IMG/VR virus record: IMGVR_UViG_649989947_000012
Location: 1-39,670 of that record
DNA from: a virus
Lineage: Duplodnaviria > Heunggongvirae > Uroviricota > Caudoviricetes
Reading direction: 5' to 3' (one strand)
Length of the DNA stretch: 39,670 nt
Made by a program: the position numbers and the translations under genes. Shown in pieces: positions 1 through 32,911 of the stretch. Positions within the stretch are counted from its first letter, which is position 1. Each line of letters opens with the position of its first letter. The notes beneath the pieces are model-generated. The model saw nothing but the letters and a program-made list of their open reading frames with translations, was not told the DNA's origin and did not search any database.

Positions 1-1400
1 CCGATCCAGTGGCTGTGTAAGAATCCGGAAACGCTCACTTGTTTCCGGATTTTTTTTATGCACATTGGACAGGCTCTTGATCTGGTATCCCGTTACGATT
101 CTCTGCGTAACCCACTGACTTCTCTGGGGGATTACCTCGACCCCGAACTCATCTCTCGTTGCCTTGCCGAATCAGGTACTGTAACGCTACGCAAGCGCCG
201 TCTTCCCCTCGAAATGATGGTCTGGTGTATTGTTGGCATGGCGCTTGAGCGTAAAGAACCTCTTCACCAGATTGTGAATCGCCTGGACATCATGCTGCCG
301 GGCAATCGCCCCTTCGTTGCCCCCAGTGCCGTTATTCAGGCCCGCCAGCGCCTGGGAAGTGAGGCTGTCCGCCGCGTGTTCACGAAAACAGCGCAGCTCT
401 GGCATAACGCCACGCCGCATCCGCACTGGTGCGGCCTGACCCTGCTGGCCATCGATGGTGTGTTCTGGCGCACACCGGATACACCAGAGAACGATGCAGC
501 CTTCCCCCGCCAGACACATGCCGGGAACCCGGCGCTCTACCCGCAGGTCAAAATGGTCTGCCAGATGGAACTGACCAGCCATCTGCTGACGGCTGCAGCC
601 TTCGGCACGATGAAGAACAGCGAAAATGAGCTTGCTGAGCAACTTATAGAACAAACCGGCGATAACACTCTGACGTTAATGGATAAAGGTTATTACTCAC
701 TGGGACTGTTAAATGCCTGGAGCCTGGCGGGAGAACACCGCCACTGGATGATACCTCTCAGAAAGGGAGCGCAATATGAAGAGATCAGAAAACTGGGTAA
801 AGGCGATCATCTGGTGAAGCTGAAAACCAGCCCGCAGGCACGAAAAAAGTGGCCGGGACTGGGAAATGAAGTGACTGCCCGCCTGCTGACCGTGACGCGC
901 AAAGGAAAAGTCTGCCATCTGCTGACGTCGATGACGGACGCCATGCGCTTCCCCGGAGGAGAAATGGGGGATCTGTACAGTCATCGCTGGGAAATCGAAC
1001 TGGGATACAGGGAGATAAAACAGACGATGCAACGGAGCAGGCTGACGCTGAGAAGTAAAAAGCCGGAGCTTGTGGAGCAAGAGCGTGTGGGGGGGCTTAC
1101 TGGCTTATAATCTGGTGAGATATCAGATGATTAAAATGGCGGAACATCTGAAAGGTTACTGGCCGAATCAACTGAGTTTCTCAGAATCATGCGGAATGGT
1201 GATGAGAATGCTGATGACATTGCAGGGCGCTTCACCGGGACGTATACCGGAGCTGATGCGCGATCTTGCAAGTATGGGACAACTTGTGAAATTACCGACA
1301 AGAAGGGAAAGGGCCTTCCCGAGAGTGGTAAAGGAGAGGCCCTGGAAATACCCCACAGCCCCGAAAAAGAGCCAGTCAGTTGCTTAACTGACTGGCATTA
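1..1400 (+). mobile_element. IS4 insertion sequence, left end cut by window edge
   Basis: Encodes the IS4 transposase (recognised from memory); right end placed at the palindrome GCCAGTCAGTT/AACTGACTGGC followed by ATTA near 1368-1400. Boundaries approximate. Confidence 0.7.
58..1387 (+). pseudogene. insG: IS4 transposase with broken reading frame
   Basis: ORF 58..1110 carries the N-terminal 340 aa and ORF 1070..1387 carries the C-terminus in another frame; the join is at a G-homopolymer near 1084-1092. Confidence 0.75.
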
Positions 1401-2402: not shown

Positions 2403-2891
2403 GTGGCACAACGCGGTGTAAACAAAGTCATCCTGATTGGTACCCTGGGGCAAGACCCGGAGATCAGGTATATACCAAATGGCGGAGCGGTCGGAAGACT
2501 CAGCATCGCAACGAATGAATCATGGCGCGACAAGCAAACGGGCCAACAGAAAGAGCAAACAGAATGGCATAGAGTCGTTTTGTTCGGGAAACTTGCTGAA
2601 ATTGCGAGTGAGTATTTACGAAAAGGTTCTCAGGTCTACATCGAAGGGAAACTTAAAACCCGTAAGTGGACAGATGACGCCGGTGTAGAACGTTACACGA
2701 CGGAAATTATCGTCAGCCAGGGCGGAACTATGCAAATGATCGGCGCCCGCCGCGACGATTCACAGTCCTCAAATGGCTGGGGGCAATCAAACCAACCTCA
2801 AAACCACCAGCAATACAGCGGTGGCGGCAAACCTCAGAGCAGCGCCAATAACGAACCTCCAATGGACTTTGACGACGATATTCCGTTTTAG
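2403..2891 (+). CDS. ssb: single-stranded DNA-binding protein, phage/plasmid type
   Basis: OB-fold SSB signature ([46 protein letters not shown]) and acidic tail ending [11 protein letters not shown]; GTG start. Confidence 0.9.
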
Positions 2892-2930
2892 AGTTAACTT
2901 GTGAGTTATTTGTAAATAGTTCATACACAG

Positions 2931-2958
2931 GCCCCTGTTAATACAGGGGATTTTTATT
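2931..2958 (+). terminator. rho-independent terminator after ssb
   Basis: Hairpin CCCCTGT-taata-ACAGGGG followed by ATTTTTATTT. Confidence 0.55.
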
Positions 2959-3139
2959 TCTAGTAACTATAAGAGGTGTTAATTATTAATTGACAATCTT
3001 TAGTGTTTCGCGCACCTTGCAAGTATCCAATATTTACTGATTGTGGACGCATAAAGAAGATCCACAGCGTTACAAATTTGTATTTCTTTCTTCAGCAATT
3101 AAGCAGGCGACTTGCTCTATCCTGCCCAAAGGAACACGT

Positions 3140-4495
3140 ATGACACACTGCAAAGAAAATACTTGGTATGAGCGTCAAGGGTACAATACCACCCGCCCGA
3201 ATGAGATAAGGTCGGAGTATGAACGTGATCTTTCCCGGTTAATCCACTCTTCCGCTTTTAGGAGATTACAATCGAAGACGCAGGTGTTGGGATTGGGCGA
3301 AAGCGATTTCTACCGTACGCGGCTAACTCACTCTATGGAAGTAGCGCAAATTGGCGGCGGTATCTTGTCTCAGTTGTCTAAGCGCGATACAGATGAGGGG
3401 GGTAAATTCTTACCTGACCCAAGCCTGATGCAGGCTATCTGCCTTGCTCATGATATAGGACATCCCCCCTTCGGTCATGGTGGTGAGGTCGCACTAAACT
3501 ACTGCATGAGATCCTATGGCGGCTTTGAAGGTAACGGGCAGACACTGCGTATACTCTCCAAACTGGATAAGTACACCGAAACCAATGGGCTGGATCCCAC
3601 CCGTAGACTTATTTTAGGCGTACTGAAATATCCAGCAAGCTATTCAGAGGTCGTCAATGAGAGGGCTTACAGCCAGTTACAGCCAAGAAGCAATGAGTGG
3701 TTGTTTAAATCATCCGAATTTAAGCCCCCGAAATGTTACCTGGACTCTGAGGAGAACACTGTTAGATTCGCACTCCAACCTTTTGATAGTGATGATGTTA
3801 AGTTATTCAAAACGGTAAAAACTACCGCGTTGAATAAGCACAAGGAAACAATATATAAAGCACTGGATACAACGATTATGGACTTGGCTGATGAGATATC
3901 CTACTCACTCCATGATCTTGAAGACGCAATTTCTCTGAAGATGATCGACAAAAAAATGTGGGAGGAGCACTTCGAGGACAAATCCCATTTATTTGCAGCT
4001 TGCCAATGCGACTCGTTTAATCTAAAAGCCGATGATGTAGCTGAAAAACTGTTCGGCGAAAGTTATCTACGCAAGGAGTGCATAGGGACACTTGTTCATC
4101 TGATGATCACTAGCGTTAAGCTTGAAGTGCAGAACTCTGATTTCAAAAGTAAAATTTTACGCTATAAAGTAGCACTTCCTGCCGCGGTAGAAGAGTTACG
4201 TAAAGCCATTTTTGAGCTGGTTAGGAACAAAGTTATTCAGCACGAAAACGTCCAACTATTAGAGTTCAAAGGTCAGAAACTGATTGTGGAACTATTCAAT
4301 GTACTGGCAAATGACCCAATACGTTTTCTCCCGACAGAAACTCGAAAGAAATATAATCAAGAGGAAGCAAAAGGTGATGATAAAAAAATGCGCGTCATTT
4401 GCGACTATGTTTCAGGCATGACAGATGATTACGCTACTCGACTGTATGAGAAAATATTTGTACCGAGAAAAGGCTCTATTTTTGATAGACTCTGA
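3140..4495 (+). CDS. dGTPase-family HD-domain dNTP triphosphohydrolase, 451 aa
   Basis: Dgt-family motifs RTRLTHSMEVAQIG, LAHDIGHPPFGH, MDLADEISYSLHDLEDA and C-terminal DYVSGMTDDYATRLY; start at internal ATG 3140 with an AAGGA ribosome-binding site; AT-rich relative to flanking phage genes. Confidence 0.8.
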   Translation: MTHCKENTWYERQGYNTTRPNEIRSEYERDLSRLIHSSAFRRLQSKTQVLGLGESDFYRTRLTHSMEVAQIGGGILSQLSKRDTDEGGKFLPDPSLMQAICLAHDIGHPPFGHGGEVALNYCMRSYGGFEGNGQTLRILSKLDKYTETNGLDPTRRLILGVLKYPASYSEVVNERAYSQLQPRSNEWLFKSSEFKPPKCYLDSEENTVRFALQPFDSDDVKLFKTVKTTALNKHKETIYKALDTTIMDLADEISYSLHDLEDAISLKMIDKKMWEEHFEDKSHLFAACQCDSFNLKADDVAEKLFGESYLRKECIGTLVHLMITSVKLEVQNSDFKSKILRYKVALPAAVEELRKAIFELVRNKVIQHENVQLLEFKGQKLIVELFNVLANDPIRFLPTETRKKYNQEEAKGDDKKMRVICDYVSGMTDDYATRLYEKIFVPRKGSIFDRL

Positions 4496-4660
4496 TTTTT
4501 TTCTATTATATAGTACGTAGCCTGGTTCCAGAACCGCATAAAATTAGATCTGGATATAATTCATTTAATTATCTGTTATATGCCAAACATAACGATATAT
4601 AATAGTGGATTAGATGTTACAACTTGACGCAGAATAAATAGCTTTTATTGGCGCATGATG

Positions 4661-4688
4661 CAAACCCCGCAATGAAGCGGGGTTTTAA
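4661..4688. terminator. bidirectional hairpin terminator between convergent genes
   Basis: AACCCCGC-aatgaa-GCGGGGTT flanked by T-runs on both strands. Confidence 0.45.
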
Positions 4689-4702
4689 CTGTGGTAAATG
4701 AG

Positions 4703-4814
4703 TTATAATCTTTTAATCAGGCTCTCAATATTAGTTGGTTCAAAGTAATGCTTATTAACCTCTCCATTTATGAGAAAACCGTCTTTTAGTAGTCGGTCTA
4801 GCTCACGCTCTGCT
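4703..4814 (-). pseudogene. 3' part of a small membrane-protein gene split by the IS10-derived element
   Basis: Hand translation continues the 6332..6597 frame across the insertion (…KEAER|ELDRLLKDGFLINGEVNKHYFEPTNIESLIKRL) once the element and one duplication copy are removed. Confidence 0.45.
4806..4814. repeat. 9-bp target-site duplication CGCTCTGCT, left copy
   Basis: Identical 9-mer directly abuts both ends of the IS10-derived element (4806-4814 and 6332-6340). Confidence 0.8.
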
Positions 4815-6143
4815 CTGATGAATCCCCTAATGATTTTGGTAAAAATCATTAAGTTAAGGTGGATACACATCTTGTCATATGATCAAATGGTTTCGCGAAA
4901 AATCAATAATCAGACAACAAGATGTGCGAACTCGATATTTTACACGACTCTCTTTACCAATTCTGCCCCGAATTACACTTAAAACGACTCAACAGCTTAA
5001 CGTTGGCTTGCCACGCATTACTTGACTGTAAAACTCTCACTCTTACCGAACTTGGCCGTAACCTGCCAACCAAAGCGAGAACAAAACATAACATCAAACG
5101 AATCGACCGATTGTTAGGTAATCGTCACCTCCACAAAGAGCGACTCGCTGTATACCGTTGGCATGCTAGCTTTATCTGTTCGGGCAATACGATGCCCATT
5201 GTACTTGTTGACTGGTCTGATATCCGTGAGCAAAAACGGCTTATGGTATTGCGAGCTTCAGTCGCACTACACGGTCGTTCTGTTACTCTTTATGAGAAAG
5301 CGTTCCCGCTTTCAGAGCAATGTTCAAAGAAAGCTCATGACCAATTTCTAGCCGACCTTGCGAGCATTCTACCGAGTAACACCACACCGCTCATTGTCAG
5401 TGATGCTGGCTTTAAAGTGCCATGGTATAAATCCGTTGAGAAGCTGGGTTGGTACTGGTTAAGTCGAGTAAGAGGAAAAGTACAATATGCAGACCTAGGA
5501 GCGGAAAACTGGAAACCTATCAGCAACTTACATGATATGTCATCTAGTCACTCAAAGACTTTAGGCTATAAGAGGCTGACTAAAAGCAATCCAATCTCAT
5601 GCCAAATTCTATTGTATAAATCTCGCTCTAAAGGCCGAAAAAATCAGCGCTCGACACGGACTCATTGTCACCACCCGTCACCTAAAATCTACTCAGCGTC
5701 GGCAAAGGAGCCATGGGTTCTAGCAACTAACTTACCTGTTGAAATTCGAACACCCAAACAACTTGTTAATATCTATTCGAAGCGAATGCAGATTGAAGAA
5801 ACCTTCCGAGACTTGAAAAGTCCTGCCTACGGACTAGGCCTACGCCATAGCCGAACGAGCAGCTCAGAGCGTTTTGATATCATGCTGCTAATCGCCCTGA
5901 TGCTTCAACTAACATGTTGGCTTGCGGGCGTTCATGCTCAGAAACAAGGTTGGGACAAGCACTTCCAGGCTAACACAGTCAGAAATCGAAACGTACTCTC
6001 AACAGTTCGCTTAGGCATGGAAGTTTTGCGGCATTCTGGCTACACAATAACAAGGGAAGACTCACTCGTGGCTGCAACCCTGCTTACTCAAAATCTATTC
6101 ACACATGGTTACGTTTTGGGGAAATTATGAGGGGATCTCTCAG
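4815..6143 (+). mobile_element. IS10 (IS10-Right type), complete 1329 bp
   Basis: Outside end CTGATGAATCCCCTAATGATTTTGG at 4815 and inside end (complement of CTGAGAGATCCCCTCATAATTTCCCC) ending at 6143; encodes an intact 402-aa transposase. Confidence 0.9.
4922..6130 (+). CDS. tnp: IS10 transposase, 402 aa
   Basis: Full-length ORF beginning MCELDILHDSLYQFCPELHLKRLNSLTLACHALLDCK, recognised as the Tn10/IS10 transposase. Confidence 0.95.
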   Translation: MCELDILHDSLYQFCPELHLKRLNSLTLACHALLDCKTLTLTELGRNLPTKARTKHNIKRIDRLLGNRHLHKERLAVYRWHASFICSGNTMPIVLVDWSDIREQKRLMVLRASVALHGRSVTLYEKAFPLSEQCSKKAHDQFLADLASILPSNTTPLIVSDAGFKVPWYKSVEKLGWYWLSRVRGKVQYADLGAENWKPISNLHDMSSSHSKTLGYKRLTKSNPISCQILLYKSRSKGRKNQRSTRTHCHHPSPKIYSASAKEPWVLATNLPVEIRTPKQLVNIYSKRMQIEETFRDLKSPAYGLGLRHSRTSSSERFDIMLLIALMLQLTCWLAGVHAQKQGWDKHFQANTVRNRNVLSTVRLGMEVLRHSGYTITREDSLVAATLLTQNLFTHGYVLGKL

Positions 6144-6331
6144 CGTTAAGCTGTTGAGTCGTTTTAAGTGTAATTCGGGGCAGAATTGGTAAAGAGAGTC
6201 GTGTAAAATATCGAGTTCGCACATTTTGTTGTCTGATTATTGATTTTTGGCGAAACCATTTGATCATATGACAAGATGTGTATCTACCTTAACTTAATGA
6301 TTTTGATAAAAATCATTAGGGGATTCATCAG
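6144..6331 (-). mobile_element. inverted 188-bp fragment of an IS10 outside end
   Basis: Reverse complement of 4815-5002 with a few substitutions (for example TTTTTATCAAAATC versus TTTTGGTAAAAATC), abutting the inside end of the full copy. Confidence 0.85.
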
Positions 6332-6340
6332 CGCTCTGCT
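6332..6340. repeat. 9-bp target-site duplication CGCTCTGCT, right copy
   Basis: Matches 4806-4814 exactly. Confidence 0.8.
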
Positions 6341-6597
6341 TCTTTGTTGAACATACCTGGATATATTCTCTTGTACAACTGAAACGTACCATTCATATTC
6401 CTGTAAGCATTCTCAGCAATTTCAATGGAGATTTCATTTCCGGCGTTAAATACAGGAATGAATATCTCAAGAATATCATTCTTTAACTTCTGTTTAAGTT
6501 TCTTTTTTTCAACAATATTAGAATAAAAGATACCTAAAAAAAATGTGCAGATACCAGGAAGCCAATTATTAACGAAAACCTCAGACAAAGCGTCCAC
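6332..6597 (-). pseudogene. 5' part of the small membrane-protein gene split by the IS10-derived element
   Basis: ORF 6328..6597 begins MDALSEVFVNNWLPGICTFFLGIFYSNIV (hydrophobic N-terminus) and runs into the IS end, where it meets a stop inside IS10 sequence. Confidence 0.45.
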
Positions 6598-6803
6598 TAT
6601 CTTACTCCAGAGTTAAGATTGATTCTCATAACGCACAAACTCCGTTCAAGGCGATTTTTATATTACAAACTATACATAAACGCTGATCAATATCTCCAGA
6701 TTTTGTGTGCCTGTGCATGAATATGCACTAATCATAATCGACCAGAACTTCCGTTAATCGCTAAACTCGAACGATTCTAGCCACATAGACGATCTGTTAG
6801 TAT

Positions 6804-7112
6804 CTAATATACAAACTGATCCACATGATCACCCAAATCATCGTCGTCGTCCTCATCGCCACCATCTACTGCTGGCCAATCAACAAACCAGCCAGCGTAA
6901 AGATGCAGCGTTCGGAGAACATCACTTGCGGGAGCATCAAGGGTGTTAACGAATCCCATATAGCTATTGGGATTTGCTCCAGCTATGGCTTCAGCGATCA
7001 TGTCCTCGGTAATGTCACCGGAGATAATGCTTAAACGCCCGGAAACTTCTTCATTATCATCAAATTCGATAATGGCATCTCCACCTAATGGCGCTGCGAT
7101 TTTAATCTGCAT
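6804..7112 (-). CDS. small highly acidic protein (102 aa) coupled to the ddrB-like gene
   Basis: Start overlaps the stop of the upstream 995-aa gene by 11 nt; very acidic C-terminal half (DGGDEDDDDDLGDHVDQ). Confidence 0.5.
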   Translation of the reverse strand: MQIKIAAPLGGDAIIEFDDNEEVSGRLSIISGDITEDMIAEAIAGANPNSYMGFVNTLDAPASDVLRTLHLYAGWFVDWPAVDGGDEDDDDDLGDHVDQFVY

Positions 7113-10089
7113 TATTTAGCTCCTTTGCCACACCTAATAACAGTTCCAGCAATCCGTCACCATTCATCAGTGATGCGGCAGCGGCCTCTTTGTCATGATA
7201 CAACTGAAGAGCCATAGAGAATACTTCCGTTGCTGACGTTTTGGAAATAGTCGGTGATTTCTGCCGAATTTTCCCGGTGTTACTTACTGAGGCTGGCGGG
7301 TATACCTTCGCCATATAAATATTACTCAATCGAGATCTGAAGCACCATTCAGGCTTGCCACGCCCACCGATATTGACGAAAGATGGCTTATCCCCTTCAA
7401 CATTGGCCTTCAGGAATGACCGGGCTTTCTCTAACAAACCAGGGTTACTGTACTCAAGATGATGACCCAGCTCGTGCCACAGTGCACTTGCATTTTCATC
7501 GTTCAAATTGACAGCAACAACACCATTTAGATTTGCATATGCCCTTCCCTGGTGGTGAACTACCTTTGATAAGGTCGATATTTTCCCGCCGGTCAGGCGA
7601 TAAATATCAGCAAGTTCCTTGCGCAGGTCTATCCCACCATTCTGTCCAGCGCGGGCTTCTTCCACTTCTTCTGTGATAAAAGAGTCGGCCCACTCAAGAG
7701 CTTTTTCTTCAGATACGGATGAGTTTGCGATCGCACTGTTCATGGCAGATAACACTTTCTCGTGGACCGAACCCATACTTCGCTGATTCATTTGCCAGCG
7801 TGTCTGCGGGTTATATGAGAATCGCTTAAGTAGTTGGTCAAGCTGCTCAAGTTCTTCTTCACTGACATACTTTTTAGCCTCACCAATAATGCCAGGGAGA
7901 ATATTGCCGTTAGGATTAAACGCTCGCGAAAGGAAGAGTTTCAGCGCCCCCATGCCCTCCGATGCTTCAATATCACCAATAACCCGGTTAACAATGGCCG
8001 CACTCTTCGGATTAGCATCCGCCAACGCTCTGGCTACAATTTGCAGGGACGATACGACCTCACGCTGCATATCCGTCCTGATCTCATCAATAAACTCTGG
8101 CGTTATGCCGTGCTCTTTAAGGATATCCCTGCCTTCCGCCGTTACCCCATCGATATCTCCGACATGTTTATTAACCCGACTTTGCAATGCCTTAAATGCC
8201 TTCAGAATTCCACGGGAATCATCCGCTTTACTAACGGCCTTCCTGAATGCTGGCAAGAAGTCTGAGTTAACCTCATTTTGTTGATCGGCCCACTGAATGG
8301 AGGCTTCTTTCATCTCGTCCAGAGTCAGATCACCCAACGCGGTATGGTCTGTGAATATGAGCGACAACCTCTGAACCATTTCTGCCAATGGTGATGCCGA
8401 ATGCGCCGCGCTAAGGAATGCTTTCACCCTGGTTGGGCGAATGGAAAACCAGTCAATAGCTGGTGGCATATCTCCGTTTTGTATCGCCTGCGCTATCTCA
8501 TCAAAGCCGTCGCGCCCAAGGGAGGATGCGTGATTTAACAATCCGCGAAGTAACGAATTGCTGATACCGAATAATCGGCACCATTTATTCACGTCGGCAA
8601 CAGGCATTCGAACAAAATGCGCAAGCACTTGTACAAGCTGTTCATCCTGGGGATCTGTGCGGGAAAGCAGCCTGATCAGATGAATAATGTCTTTGATGCC
8701 GGATGCCCGATGTAATAGCAAACTGGTATATGGAGCAACACCGTTGTAACTACCGCCGGAAACGGACTCGAAAAGACCGCCGGATATCCCTTGCATGCCT
8801 TCGTTTTCCAGTTCCTGAGACACCTGGCGAAGGATATCCTGTAACGACACATCACCACCGCCAAACATATCCCCCAGCGCCTGGCCCTGGTGCTGTAACT
8901 CATCATTGATACGTTGAGCCATCAATTTAAAGGCGGTGGCCATACGCTTCGCGCTACGGTTATTCGCGACGATGAACAACGCGAGAGCTTTCACTTCCGG
9001 GGCTGTTTCGCTGAACATATCCCCCTGAGCAATAACATCGGTAATATGTTGGCCTGACTCCTTCGATTGCCTTACCAGGTCTACCGCATCTTTCAATGCC
9101 GCCAGCGCCTTTTTATCGAGGCTATCCGCTGTTTCAATGCCATCAACGATGGTTGTCACAGCCTGCTTGTGCGCTTCTCCTGATAAAGCCTGCATCTGGA
9201 CAAAATCATTGGCTGCCGCATTAAGCGCCGTCAGAACATTACGCATATCCGGATCAGGTTCTTCTGCAACCATCCTTACCAGGCGCGCATCCTTATATGC
9301 CTTGGCAAAGATCGCGTTTTGTATACGGTCTACAAGTTGCCGTGTTGGTCGCCCATCTTCAGTTACAAGGCCAGCCGCCTGTGTGGCACCAACTTGCGTC
9401 ATAAATCCGCGAATAAACGCGTCATTACTGCGGCTAAGCAGATCTCCACTTTCTGACGGGTTAAACAACGCCATCATCGCCGGTGTTATGCTGTCGGCAT
9501 CAACAAAAGCCTTTTCACTGGCTGCCATTTCCTGGAGATCAGAAATATTTGAGTCCTTGGCAAACTGAACACGGTCAACCTTCGTTAACCGGCGGCGCAC
9601 CAGTACCGGAGCCGTCATTGATTCAACCTTTTCAGGCCGTATGCCGAATTCGGTCGCATGTTCAATCAGGTACTCCCGATACCGATCCGCATTACCGTCC
9701 TGATAGGCTTTAATGATCCCCATGGTCCGCCCATTACCTGACTCAACGGCATTGTCCTCACCAATTATTGGCGCACCATGGCTGGATAAACCGGAATCAG
9801 TAAGCTGAGCTGGCCGCAAATCTTTGGATATCTGGTTAACCTGAAGAAGGCTGGATGCGCGGGTCCGGTCGCGCGGCTGAAGTTCCTGGGGATAGTCAGG
9901 ATTAATTTTCCCATCCAGAGTATTGGATACCAAAAGAGCTGAGGCATCGACGATATCAAACGCTGTTTTTACCTCGTCTCCCTTCGCTGTCACCACATAC
10001 GAAACCCGCCCATAATCGGGCAGGTTCTTTAGCAGCTCGATCAGCGTTTCTATGCTGGTGGCCATTACCACCTGATCGCTTAAGCTCAT
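7102..10089 (-). CDS. ddrB: large Dar-operon protein, DdrB-like (995 aa)
   Basis: Size and position after DarA-like and DdrA-like genes fit the P1 darA operon (from memory); carries an HExxH motif (ALWHELGHHLEY) near the C-terminus. Confidence 0.5.
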   Translation of the reverse strand: MSLSDQVVMATSIETLIELLKNLPDYGRVSYVVTAKGDEVKTAFDIVDASALLVSNTLDGKINPDYPQELQPRDRTRASSLLQVNQISKDLRPAQLTDSGLSSHGAPIIGEDNAVESGNGRTMGIIKAYQDGNADRYREYLIEHATEFGIRPEKVESMTAPVLVRRRLTKVDRVQFAKDSNISDLQEMAASEKAFVDADSITPAMMALFNPSESGDLLSRSNDAFIRGFMTQVGATQAAGLVTEDGRPTRQLVDRIQNAIFAKAYKDARLVRMVAEEPDPDMRNVLTALNAAANDFVQMQALSGEAHKQAVTTIVDGIETADSLDKKALAALKDAVDLVRQSKESGQHITDVIAQGDMFSETAPEVKALALFIVANNRSAKRMATAFKLMAQRINDELQHQGQALGDMFGGGDVSLQDILRQVSQELENEGMQGISGGLFESVSGGSYNGVAPYTSLLLHRASGIKDIIHLIRLLSRTDPQDEQLVQVLAHFVRMPVADVNKWCRLFGISNSLLRGLLNHASSLGRDGFDEIAQAIQNGDMPPAIDWFSIRPTRVKAFLSAAHSASPLAEMVQRLSLIFTDHTALGDLTLDEMKEASIQWADQQNEVNSDFLPAFRKAVSKADDSRGILKAFKALQSRVNKHVGDIDGVTAEGRDILKEHGITPEFIDEIRTDMQREVVSSLQIVARALADANPKSAAIVNRVIGDIEASEGMGALKLFLSRAFNPNGNILPGIIGEAKKYVSEEELEQLDQLLKRFSYNPQTRWQMNQRSMGSVHEKVLSAMNSAIANSSVSEEKALEWADSFITEEVEEARAGQNGGIDLRKELADIYRLTGGKISTLSKVVHHQGRAYANLNGVVAVNLNDENASALWHELGHHLEYSNPGLLEKARSFLKANVEGDKPSFVNIGGRGKPEWCFRSRLSNIYMAKVYPPASVSNTGKIRQKSPTISKTSATEVFSMALQLYHDKEAAAASLMNGDGLLELLLGVAKELNNAD

Positions 10090-14516: not shown

Positions 14517-15085
14517 TTACAGCTCAGATTGAGTTTGGCGCTTCTCTACAGGATGATAACGATAAATCGTCGATACACCGATATCGTAAATAATTGCCAA
14601 CTGTTTCCTGCTGTAGCCATTTTCGATCAACCTCGCTATTTGCTCATGTTGTTCTTTTGTCAACTTCGGGCGACGTCCGCCAATGCGTCCCTGTTCGCGT
14701 GCAGCTGCCAGTCCGGCCAGTGTTCTCTCAACAATTAATTCACGTTCCATTTCTGCTAAAGCCCCCATGACGTGAAAAAAGAAACGCCCCATGGGTGTTG
14801 ATGTGTCAATACTGTCTGTCAGACTACGGAAATTAACACCTTTTTCCCGCAATTCCTCAATAAGCGTGATCAGGTGTTTCATACTTCTGCCCAGTCTGTC
14901 CAGCTTCCAGACAACCAGCGTATCTCCTTCTGATAGCGTTCTGATCAGTTTTTTCAATCCCGGTCTGGCTGATTTCGTTCCGCTGATTTTATCTTCAAAA
15001 ATCAGTTCACATCCTGCGCACTCCAGCGCGTTACGCTGCAATTCTGTATTCTGGTCATTTGTTGATACGCGGACATAGCCAATAA
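14517..15085 (-). pseudogene. cin: Cin/Gin/Pin-family serine DNA invertase separated from its start codon by IS100
   Basis: Body encodes IIGYVRVSTNDQ…GRIGGRRPKLT…; the first codons (ATG CTT on the minus strand near 17045-17048) lie on the far side of IS100. The track ORF instead opens at a TTG inside the IS end. Confidence 0.8.
15081..15085. repeat. 5-bp target-site duplication AATAA, left copy of IS100
   Basis: AATAA flanks both IS100 ends (15081-15085 and 17040-17044). Confidence 0.7.
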
Positions 15086-17129
<2,044 letters not shown>

Positions 17130-31229: not shown

Positions 31230-31246
31230 AATGCTCTAATAAATTT
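31230..31246 (+). promoter_or_regulatory. C1-operator-like 17-mer AATGCTCTAATAAATTT
   Basis: One mismatch to the consensus; lies upstream of the icd-ant operon and is followed by TTTTAAGT. Confidence 0.4.
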
Positions 31247-32894: not shown

Positions 32895-32911
32895 TTTGCT
32901 CTAATAAATTT
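32895..32911 (+). promoter_or_regulatory. C1-operator-like 17-mer TTTGCTCTAATAAATTT
   Basis: Upstream of kilA; followed by TTCTAAGT. Confidence 0.45.

What the first reader, a model, noticed from the sequence alone, without database searches (positions are those of the whole stretch)
3140..4495. dGTPase-family HD-domain gene as AT-rich cargo between ssb and the Dar operon: candidate nucleotide-depletion defence
The 451-aa protein has the Dgt-family motifs (RTRLTHSMEV, HDIGHPPFGH, DLADEISY, DYVSGMTDDYATRLY) but is shorter than chromosomal Dgt. The gene is AT-rich against the flanking phage backbone and has its own terminator; from memory, the same slot in reference P1 holds an IS1 region instead. 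dGTPase homologues are known to defend against phages by depleting dGTP, so this may be a defence gene a phage-plasmid uses against competitors. The first Asp of the usual ADDISY motif is Glu here.
Basis: partly seen in the sequence, partly recalled or inferred. Interest (0 to 1): 0.7.

Follow-up and report, generated by a model that had tools for sequence, protein, structure and literature searches.

The report
Known anti-phage dGTPase on P1-like plasmid
This gene is an intact member of the already described anti-phage dGTPase family, which starves infecting viruses of dGTP; it sits in a variable cargo slot of a P1-like phage-plasmid, and both the gene's identity and its presence on such elements are already on record.

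Summary
Window 3140-4495 (+) encodes an intact 451-aa HD-domain protein with all the quoted motifs. It lies between P1 ssb and hxr/ddrB, where reference P1 carries isaA-IS1-isaB. It is moderately AT-rich: 43% GC against about 49.5% in the flanks.

- It scores 571 bits on NCBIfam NF041026 "anti-phage deoxyguanosine triphosphatase" (cut-off 400) and E 1.7e-148 on the PADLOC dGTPase model.
- It is about 80% identical to the E. coli G177-type dGTPase and 59% identical to Shewanella Sp-dGTPase (PDB 9P8W). Both were shown to block phages.
- All six catalytic or metal-binding residues are invariant.

One detail is wrong. The second Asp of ADDISY is the one replaced by Glu (E252). The metal-binding first Asp (D251, equivalent to Dgt D268) is kept.

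None of this is new. The same allele (>=99%) is in 53 PLSDB plasmids and 64 complete E. coli genomes, nearly all annotated as this family. A 2025 preprint already notes dGTPase on E. coli P1-like phage-plasmids.

The slot is a cargo hotspot. Other P1-likes carry a porin, Tad2-like proteins or hypothetical genes there. The gene has no partner gene. Its convergent 122-aa neighbour, split here by an IS10-derived element, occurs elsewhere without a dGTPase. This allele's activity and phage protection remain untested.

The parts
3140..4495 (+). Anti-phage dGTPase gene (451 aa; HD domain aa 61-134, HD_assoc aa 345-437). Predicted metal ligands are H64, H104, D105 and D251; the catalytic dyad is H113/E116.
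   Evidence: ORF and motifs. Pfam HD + HD_assoc. NF041026 571 bits against cut-off 400. PADLOC dGTPase E 1.7e-148. Invariant residues in alignment A1.
2932..2949 (+). Intrinsic terminator just after ssb (CCCCTGT-TAAT-ACAGGGG followed by ATTTTTATTT). It lies inside the cargo segment and insulates the dGTPase from the C1-controlled ssb transcript.
   Evidence: Terminator scan. Fold -12.9 kcal/mol, z -3.1. Homology to P1 ends at 2889.
2950..3139 (+). 190-nt leader/promoter region of the dGTPase. It has a Shine-Dalgarno AAGGAA at 3129-3134, 5 nt before the ATG. The last ~70 nt are conserved with the chromosomal G177-type allele. It holds no C1 operator, and no strong sigma-70 consensus was called.
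   Evidence: Sequence. Promoter scan found none in this stretch. Alignment with the region upstream of the chromosomal allele. C1 operator search found only Ossb at 2367-2383 nearby.
4662..4685 (.). 9-bp G+C-rich hairpin (AACCCCGC...GCGGGGTT) between the convergent dGTPase and 122-aa genes. It is a candidate bidirectional terminator.
   Evidence: Folds of -19 (+) and -18.1 (-) kcal/mol, z about -3. Not called by the stricter consensus scan.
2890..6803 (.). Cargo segment with no counterpart in reference P1. It occupies the ssb-hxr slot. About 2.4 kb is native cargo and 1517 bp is an IS10-derived insertion.
   Evidence: blastn of the window against P1, an intact P1-like plasmid and phage 673R5. 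Annotation of P1 and pKFu022_2.
4703..4814 (-). 3' part of the 122-aa hypothetical gene (WP_000339558 type), convergent with the dGTPase. It is separated from its 5' part by the IS10-derived element.
   Evidence: Intact gene in L003 6704-7072. Alignment break at 4814.
6332..6597 (-). 5' part of the same 122-aa gene (hydrophobic N-terminus). It has no Pfam or PADLOC match. Homologues elsewhere are not linked to dGTPases.
4815..6331 (+). IS10-derived insertion: a complete IS10 (4815-6143, transposase 4922-6130) plus a 188-bp inverted copy of an IS10 outside end (6144-6331). It is flanked by a 9-bp target duplication, CGCTCTGCT (4806-4814 and 6332-6340).
   Evidence: Sequence. Transposase NF033591, 403 bits. 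Alignment gap relative to intact plasmids.
2403..2891 (+). P1 ssb, the left border of the slot. The C1 operator Ossb lies upstream at 2367-2383.
6804..7112 (-). hxr, the right border of the slot. It is followed by ddrB (7102-10089, -) of the Dar region.

Best explanation
The gene encodes a single-protein anti-phage dGTP triphosphohydrolase of the Sp-/Ec-dGTPase family (Tal et al.).

Proposed mechanism: the HD active site (H64, H104, D105, D251 holding the metal; H113/E116 as catalytic dyad) cleaves dGTP to deoxyguanosine and triphosphate. This drains the dGTP pool, so a superinfecting lytic phage cannot replicate its DNA.

The gene is carried as accessory cargo in the variable ssb-hxr slot of a P1-like phage-plasmid. 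It sits behind its own terminator-insulated leader and outside C1 operator control. It is therefore most likely expressed in the lysogen, where it protects the host, and so the resident phage-plasmid, from competing phages.

Shown here: family membership, intact catalytic residues, purifying selection, cargo position, and absence of a partner gene.
Taken from the literature on relatives: dGTP depletion, phage protection, loss of defence in an HD mutant, and a link to phage tampering with host RNA polymerase.
Inferred: activity of this allele, its expression from the prophage state, and which phages it blocks.
For: - Profile scores are above curated cut-offs: NF041026 571/400 and NF003701 562/383. 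PADLOC dGTPase gives E 1.7e-148. The domains are HD + HD_assoc.
- The best solved structure is 9P8W (E 3e-158). This is Shewanella putrefaciens Sp-dGTPase, which hydrolyses dGTP on its own in vitro. It also protects E. coli from phages, with dGTP becoming undetectable and dG rising, and its D101A mutant is inactive. Sp D101 corresponds to window D105.
- The E. coli G177 dGTPase tested by Tal et al. (first ~133 codons in their Table S5) differs by one residue from cluster P0003, which is 80-81% identical to the window protein.
- Identity to Sp-dGTPase is 59%. This is above the 45% line that Tal et al. drew for the defence-island-associated clade.
- H64, H104, D105, H113, E116 and D251 are invariant across the family and in E. 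coli Dgt (H69, H117, D118, H126, E129, D268). They match the roles given for the equivalent residues of CloA, a family relative.
- dN/dS is 0.12 against the chromosomal allele.
- The same allele (>=99%) is in 53 PLSDB plasmids and 64 of 5,426 complete E. coli genomes. All are on plasmids of roughly P1 size, and nearly all are annotated 'anti-phage deoxyguanosine triphosphatase'.
- A preprint lists dGTPase among the defences common on E. coli P1-like phage-plasmids.
- The slot is variable and holds conflict-type cargo in other P1-likes, such as a Tad2-like domain protein and a porin.
- A terminator follows ssb, and there is no C1 operator in the cargo.
Against: - No experiment exists on this allele. 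The tested E. coli enzyme is only about 80% identical.
- No convincing sigma-70 promoter was found in the 190-nt leader, so expression in the lysogen is assumed rather than shown.
- A constitutively active dGTPase should also hamper P1's own lytic replication. How the element copes is unknown.
- In phage record ON470615 the gene is annotated as two CDS, so it can be lost or broken without killing the phage.
- The neighbouring 122-aa gene is disrupted here. If it did modulate the enzyme, this copy could behave atypically. Its homologues, however, are not linked to dGTPases.
Confidence: 0.85

Rival explanations
1. The enzyme serves dNTP-pool housekeeping for the host or plasmid, for example replication fidelity or balancing dGTP as proposed for chromosomal Dgt. 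It does not serve defence.
For: It belongs to the wider dGTP triphosphohydrolase superfamily (TIGR01353 373 bits). It shares all catalytic residues with E. coli Dgt. Tal et al. note that distant homologues may be housekeeping.
Against: It is only 32% identical to Dgt, and its score on the Dgt equivalog NF003429 is far below cut-off (143 against 405). The host already has dgt. The gene is sporadic, present in about 1.3% of complete E. coli genomes and about 11% of P1-like plasmids, which is a distribution typical of defence genes. It lies in the clade that is >=45% identical to Sp-dGTPase and is enriched next to defence systems.
Confidence: 0.06
2. The gene benefits the phage-plasmid's own life cycle directly. 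By lowering dGTP it could restrain runaway lytic replication or bias the lysis-lysogeny decision, or it could act as an addiction or competition factor against other plasmids, rather than blocking superinfecting phages.
For: It is carried by a temperate phage next to replication and lysis genes (ssb, lyz). Depletion of a dNTP is toxic if prolonged.
Against: Most P1-like elements lack it and carry unrelated cargo in the slot. It is insulated from the ssb transcript and carries no C1 operator. Close relatives are chromosomal and were shown to act against unrelated lytic phages.
Confidence: 0.05
3. It is an inert passenger: an unexpressed or inactive remnant of a past recombination event.
For: No clear promoter was found. 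The region is littered with IS elements. The gene is split in one phage record.
Against: The reading frame is intact and the active site is fully conserved. dN/dS is 0.12. A conserved leader and Shine-Dalgarno are shared with the chromosomal allele. The allele is nearly identical in more than 60 independent isolates from humans, animals and water.
Confidence: 0.03

Closest known systems
Ec-dGTPase of E. coli G177 (Tal et al., bioRxiv 10.1101/2021.04.26.441389; cluster P0003 here)
   Same: Identity is 80-81% over the full length (451 against 454 aa). It has the same DLADEISY variant of the motif, the same catalytic residues and a single-gene organisation. The roughly 70-nt leader and the Shine-Dalgarno are conserved. 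It was reported to protect E. coli MG1655 against phages.
   Different: The G177-type allele is chromosomal. It lies in an island beside yjcB/pdeC/soxS, next to a PfkB/QueC/Ogg/Dam-like cluster. The window allele is found only on P1-like plasmids. The window allele itself has not been tested.
Sp-dGTPase of Shewanella putrefaciens CN-32 (PDB 9P8W)
   Same: E 3e-158 and 59% identity. It has the same HD + HD_assoc architecture. All metal and catalytic residues are shared (Sp D101 = D105 here). Its mechanism has been established: dGTP is cleaved to dG and dGTP is depleted on T7 infection. T7 escape mutants map to genes 5.7, 5.5 and 0.7. The enzyme is active alone in vitro.
   Different: It comes from a different genus and has small insertions. 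The motif reads ADN rather than ADE. It lies in a chromosomal defence-island context rather than on a phage-plasmid.
Housekeeping dGTPase Dgt of E. coli K-12 (b0160; PDB 4X9E/4XDS)
   Same: It has the same fold family and chemistry. H69/H117/D118/D268 and H126/E129 align with H64/H104/D105/D251 and H113/E116.
   Different: Identity is only 32%. Dgt is 505 aa and has an insertion of about 41 residues after the HD motif plus a longer C-terminal region. The window protein scores 143 bits against a cut-off of 405 on the Dgt model NF003429. Dgt is a core chromosomal gene, not mobile cargo.
CloA of the Clover system (PDB 9P8S-9P8V; PMC12265719)
   Same: It is an HD dGTPase used for anti-phage nucleotide depletion and has the same active-site layout.
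   Different: CloA is inactive alone. dTTP switches it on, and p3diT made by the partner nucleotidyltransferase CloB holds it off. No such partner is present next to the window gene. Sequence similarity is limited to the N-terminal ~150 residues (E about 1e-23).
Human SAMHD1
   Same: It works the same way: an HD-domain dNTP triphosphohydrolase restricts viruses by starving them of dNTPs.
   Different: Only distant structural similarity has been reported. SAMHD1 degrades all four dNTPs and has a different regulation.

Membership tests
Anti-phage dGTPase (NCBIfam NF041026 / NF003701; PADLOC dGTPase; Tal et al.) | Full-length match to the family profile above the curated cut-off | tested here: met
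   NF041026 571.4 bits against 400, covering aa 9-440 and profile positions 1-425 of 425. NF003701 562.2 against 383. PADLOC PDLC02374 E 1.7e-148.
Anti-phage dGTPase (NCBIfam NF041026 / NF003701; PADLOC dGTPase; Tal et al.) | HD phosphohydrolase domain plus C-terminal HD-associated domain | tested here: met
   PF01966 at aa 61-134 and PF13286 at aa 345-437, both above gathering scores.
Anti-phage dGTPase (NCBIfam NF041026 / NF003701; PADLOC dGTPase; Tal et al.) | Intact metal-binding H...HD...D residues and His/Glu catalytic dyad | tested here: met
   H64, H104, D105, D251, H113 and E116 are invariant in alignment A1. They align with Dgt H69/H117/D118/D268/H126/E129 and with Sp D101. The roles of the equivalent residues are described for the relative CloA.
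Anti-phage dGTPase (NCBIfam NF041026 / NF003701; PADLOC dGTPase; Tal et al.) | At least 45% identity to Sp-dGTPase over most of the length (the authors' boundary of the defence-associated clade) | tested here: met
   59% identity to residues 11-462 of Sp-dGTPase, reconstructed from the 9P8W alignment. The criterion is stated.
Anti-phage dGTPase (NCBIfam NF041026 / NF003701; PADLOC dGTPase; Tal et al.) | Sporadic, mobile or defence-island-type genomic context | tested here: met
   It is cargo in the variable ssb-hxr slot of P1-like plasmids: 53 of 487 such plasmids and 64 of 5,426 E. coli genomes. The same slot holds Tad2-like, porin or other cargo elsewhere.
Anti-phage dGTPase (NCBIfam NF041026 / NF003701; PADLOC dGTPase; Tal et al.) | Hydrolysis of dGTP to deoxyguanosine and triphosphate | not testable with these tools
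   Shown for Sp-dGTPase only.
Anti-phage dGTPase (NCBIfam NF041026 / NF003701; PADLOC dGTPase; Tal et al.) | Protection from phage on expression, abolished by an HD-site mutation | not testable with these tools
   Shown for the Sp, Ec G177, Ms and Pl enzymes, but not for this allele.
Housekeeping Dgt (NCBIfam NF003429 / PRK04926) | Full-length match above the curated cut-off | tested here: not met
   142.8 bits against a cut-off of 405, in three partial stretches. Identity to K-12 Dgt is 32%, and the Dgt-specific insertion is missing.
Clover (CloA dGTPase + CloB nucleotidyltransferase) | Adjacent Pol-beta-type nucleotidyltransferase partner gene | tested here: not met
   The neighbours are ssb and a 122-aa protein with no Pfam or PADLOC match. 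Similarity to CloA covers the N-terminal region only.

The most novel reading that the evidence does not exclude
A temperate phage that needs dGTP for its own lytic burst carries a dGTP-destroying enzyme. The least ordinary reading still open is that the P1-borne allele is wired to spare its carrier. It might stay latent until a foreign phage tampers with host RNA polymerase, or be neutralised by a P1 function during induction. That would amount to self/non-self discrimination in nucleotide-depletion immunity. A second possibility is that the ssb-hxr slot is a dedicated exchange site for defence and anti-defence cargo in punaviruses.
Probability: 0.12. Interest if true: 0.5.

Novelty: already known. 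Interest (0 to 1): 0.15.

Why it matters
The finding adds little that is new. It is a clean example of a phage-plasmid carrying a single-gene nucleotide-depletion defence, and it confirms that the ssb-hxr junction of P1-like elements is a cargo hotspot. That slot holds a dGTPase, Tad2-like proteins, a porin or unknown genes in different lineages.

In practice, about one in nine P1-like plasmids in PLSDB, and about 1% of complete E. coli genomes, carry this allele. This could affect the susceptibility of clinical and veterinary E. coli to therapeutic phages. The open question of how P1 tolerates its own dGTPase during lytic growth is testable.

Tried and rejected
1. Two-gene module. I tested whether the convergent 122-aa gene partners the dGTPase. 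It has no Pfam or PADLOC hit. It is absent next to the chromosomal 80% allele. Its homologues in Salmonella, Yersinia, Vibrio and Marinomonas lie in other contexts without any dGTPase. Rejected.

2. Clover-type regulated system. There is no nucleotidyltransferase neighbour, and similarity to CloA is only N-terminal. Rejected.

3. Control by the P1 C1 repressor. The only operator nearby is Ossb upstream of ssb (2367-2383), a terminator follows ssb, and none lies in the cargo. Direct C1 control is rejected.

4. Loss of a metal ligand in ADDISY. The ligand D268 aligns with D251, which is kept. Rejected.

5. Promoter. The consensus scan found no sigma-70 site in 2950-3139. By eye there is a perfect TTGACA at 2991-2996, but no acceptable -10 hexamer at 16-18 nt spacing. 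The promoter remains unassigned.

6. The look-up of the genomic context of P0006 failed because the server gave no answer. I did not repeat it.

7. I did not run structure prediction. A solved structure at 59% identity already exists, so a model would add nothing.

Full report
**1. Observation**

Window 3140-4495 (+) is an uninterrupted ATG-to-stop ORF of 451 codons. The mechanical ORF list shows it inside a longer TTG-started frame, 3041-4495.

All four quoted motifs are present. They lie at aa 59-68, 104-113, 248-255 and 422-436. An AAGGAA Shine-Dalgarno sits 5 nt before the ATG.

The gene is 43.4% GC. Its first 600 nt are 48% and the remainder 39.6%. The flanks are higher: lyz-ssb 49.6%, hxr-ddrB 49.2%, whole window 47.8%. 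The AT bias is therefore real but moderate.

The gene follows P1-type ssb (2403-2891) and precedes hxr (6804-7112, -) and ddrB (7102-10089, -).

A clean intrinsic terminator lies just after ssb at 2932-2949.

Downstream of the dGTPase the consensus scan called nothing. A strong 9-bp G+C hairpin with a short U-tract does lie at 4662-4685, between the dGTPase and a convergent gene. The 'own terminator' is thus plausible but weaker than stated.

One detail is wrong. In DLADEISY the first Asp (D251) is kept. It aligns with Dgt D268, the fourth metal ligand. The second Asp (Dgt D269) is the one that is Glu, and that position is E, N or D in functional relatives.

**2. What it is**

- Pfam finds an HD domain and an HD_assoc domain.
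- NCBIfam places the protein in NF041026 'anti-phage deoxyguanosine triphosphatase', with 571 bits against a cut-off of 400 and end-to-end coverage. It also places it in NF003701, with 562 against 383.
- The housekeeping Dgt equivalog NF003429 is far below its cut-off, at 143 against 405.
- The PADLOC dGTPase model matches at E 1.7e-148.
- The nearest solved structure is 9P8W at E 3e-158. The depositors' preprint identifies it as Shewanella putrefaciens CN-32 Sp-dGTPase, an enzyme that hydrolyses dGTP on its own in vitro.

Tal et al. tested this family experimentally.
- Sp-dGTPase and three other cloned homologues, including one from E. coli G177, protect E. coli from several phages.
- dGTP becomes undetectable and deoxyguanosine accumulates.
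- A D101A mutation in the HD motif abolishes defence.
- T7 escapes through mutations in genes 5.7, 5.5 and 0.7, whose products modify host RNA polymerase.

The first ~133 codons of their synthesised G177 gene (Table S5) differ by one residue from protein cluster P0003. P0003 is 80-81% identical to the window protein over its whole length.

Identity to Sp-dGTPase is 59%. This is above the 45% boundary the authors used for the clade enriched next to defence systems.

An alignment of the window protein, six family members, Sp-dGTPase and K-12 Dgt leaves H64, H104, D105, H113, E116 and D251 invariant. By Dgt numbering these are H69, H117, D118, H126, E129 and D268, and Sp D101 equals D105.

Against the chromosomal E. 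coli allele, dN/dS is 0.12. The gene is therefore intact, catalytically complete and under purifying selection.

**3. Surroundings**

Comparison with P1, an intact P1-like plasmid (pKFu022_2) and phage vB_EcoM-673R5 shows that homology to P1 stops at the end of ssb (2889) and resumes at the stop of hxr (6805). The cargo is therefore window 2890-6803.

In intact plasmids the cargo has two genes: the dGTPase and a convergent 122-aa protein with a hydrophobic N-terminus.

In this window the small gene is split by a 1517-bp IS10-derived element at 4815-6331. The element is a full IS10 plus a 188-bp inverted outside end, with a 9-bp target duplication, CGCTCTGCT.

The small protein is not a partner of the dGTPase.
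- It has no Pfam or PADLOC match.
- It is absent beside the chromosomal dGTPase allele.
- Its homologues in Salmonella, Yersinia, Vibrio and Marinomonas sit in other mobile or defence-like contexts with no dGTPase nearby.

The dGTPase is thus a single-gene system, as described for the family.

The only C1 operator nearby is Ossb, upstream of ssb. Together with the terminator after ssb, this argues that the dGTPase is transcribed independently of the repressed ssb unit. No convincing sigma-70 promoter was found in the 190-nt leader. The last ~70 nt of that leader are conserved with the chromosomal allele.

**4. Distribution and the slot**

- The allele (>=99% identity) occurs in 53 PLSDB plasmids. 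These are mostly non-mobilisable E. coli plasmids of roughly P1 size, nearly all annotated 'anti-phage deoxyguanosine triphosphatase'.
- It occurs in one phage record.
- It occurs in 64 of 5,426 complete E. coli genomes, always on plasmids. Eight further genomes carry the 80% allele on the chromosome.
- About 487 PLSDB plasmids carry the adjacent hxr-ddrB backbone. Exactly 54 of them are >=99% identical to the window there, and the top five of these all carry the dGTPase. The cargo and its flank therefore travel as one haplotype, found in about 11% of P1-like plasmids.

Other occupants of the slot are:
- a porin (P7 type; 99 plasmids at full length);
- two hypothetical proteins (813R1 type; 120 plasmids);
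- a protein with a Tad2-like (Thoeris anti-defence 2-like) domain plus isaA (SJ46/Ro157c2YLVW type; 110 plasmids);
- isaA-IS1-isaB in P1 itself.

None of these alternative cargo proteins hit PADLOC.

**5. Mechanism and rivals**

The best-supported account is dGTP depletion by a stand-alone HD triphosphohydrolase, expressed from the resident phage-plasmid, which blocks DNA replication of superinfecting phages.

Family membership and the integrity of the active site are shown here. The chemistry and the phage protection are taken from experiments on relatives that are 59% and about 80% identical. Expression in the lysogen, the spectrum of phages blocked, and how P1 tolerates the enzyme during its own lytic growth are inferred or unknown.

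The rivals each fit the data less well. They are a housekeeping role, a role in P1's own life cycle, and an inert passenger. The reasons are given under the rival explanations.

**6. Comparison with what is known, and novelty**

The protein meets every sequence-level criterion of the anti-phage dGTPase family. It fails those of housekeeping Dgt and of Clover.

The gene is already named as such by NCBI's pipeline in dozens of records and is detected by a 2023 defence-finder model. A 2025 preprint on phage-plasmids states that E. coli P1-like elements commonly carry dGTPase. That phage-plasmids exchange defence systems is also established.

The finding is ordinary: a known defence gene in a known kind of place. 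Its interest is low.

Noticed in passing
window 4815-6331 (TSD 4806-4814 and 6332-6340): A 1517-bp IS10-derived element: a complete IS10 plus a 188-bp inverted copy of an IS10 outside end, so that two outside ends flank it. It is inserted with a 9-bp duplication, CGCTCTGCT, into the 122-aa gene downstream of the dGTPase. Intact P1-like plasmids lack it.
   Followed up: yes
window 4703-4814 + 6332-6597 (-); loci L011-L019: The 122-aa protein has a hydrophobic N-terminus and no known domain. Its homologues (57-83% identity) occur in Salmonella (an island with antirestriction, DUF1281 and Eco57I-type methylase genes), Vibrio (next to Mrr_cat, T5orf172 and HNH genes), Yersinia (next to a MuF-type giant protein) and Marinomonas. 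It is an uncharacterised small gene that keeps turning up in mobile or defence-like neighbourhoods.
   Followed up: partly
L007 990-1667 and L008 822-1667 (the same ssb-hxr slot in phages Ro157c2YLVW and SJ46): In these P1-like phages the slot encodes proteins whose C-terminus is a Tad2-like (Thoeris anti-defence 2-like, PF11195) domain (E about 2e-22). About 110 PLSDB plasmids carry this arrangement at full length. The slot thus alternates between defence and putative anti-defence cargo.
   Followed up: partly
window 6804-8800, compared with PLSDB: Of 487 plasmids with the hxr-ddrB backbone, 54 are >=99% identical to the window there, against 53 that carry the dGTPase. The cargo and the adjacent Dar-region allele appear to be inherited as one block.
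   Followed up: partly
window 1-1400: The window starts inside an IS4-type element. Its transposase reading frame is broken into two overlapping ORFs (58-1110 and 1070-1387), which indicates a frameshift or a sequencing error. Homology to P1-like plasmids begins at 1401, just after the pro gene position.
   Followed up: partly
window 15172-16973, next to 14517-15119: An IS21-family element (IstA-type transposase of 340 aa, NF033546 322 bits; IstB helper ATPase of 260 aa, NF006616 466 bits) lies beside the cin-like serine invertase. It is the third IS in this 40-kb stretch of the phage-plasmid.
   Followed up: partly
L001 3741-4028 and 4105-5094 (phage vB_EcoM-673R5, ON470615.2): In the only phage-collection record that carries the same dGTPase, the gene is annotated as two separate CDS. 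It may be frameshifted there, either as a genuine pseudogene or through assembly error.
   Followed up: no
L009 3298-7474 and L004 1298-5474 (chromosomal G177-type locus): The chromosomal 80% allele sits next to a conserved cluster: a PfkB kinase/nucleoside deoxyribosyltransferase-like protein, a QueC-like 7-cyano-7-deazaguanine synthase, a nitroreductase, an Ogg-type glycosylase and a DNA adenine methylase. This may be a guanine/deazaguanine-related modification or defence module.
   Followed up: no
window 31230-31246 and 32895-32911: Two further near-consensus C1 repressor operators, each with one mismatch to ATTGCTCTAATAAATTT, lie elsewhere in the window. Three matches in all were found against 0.2 expected by chance.
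   Followed up: no
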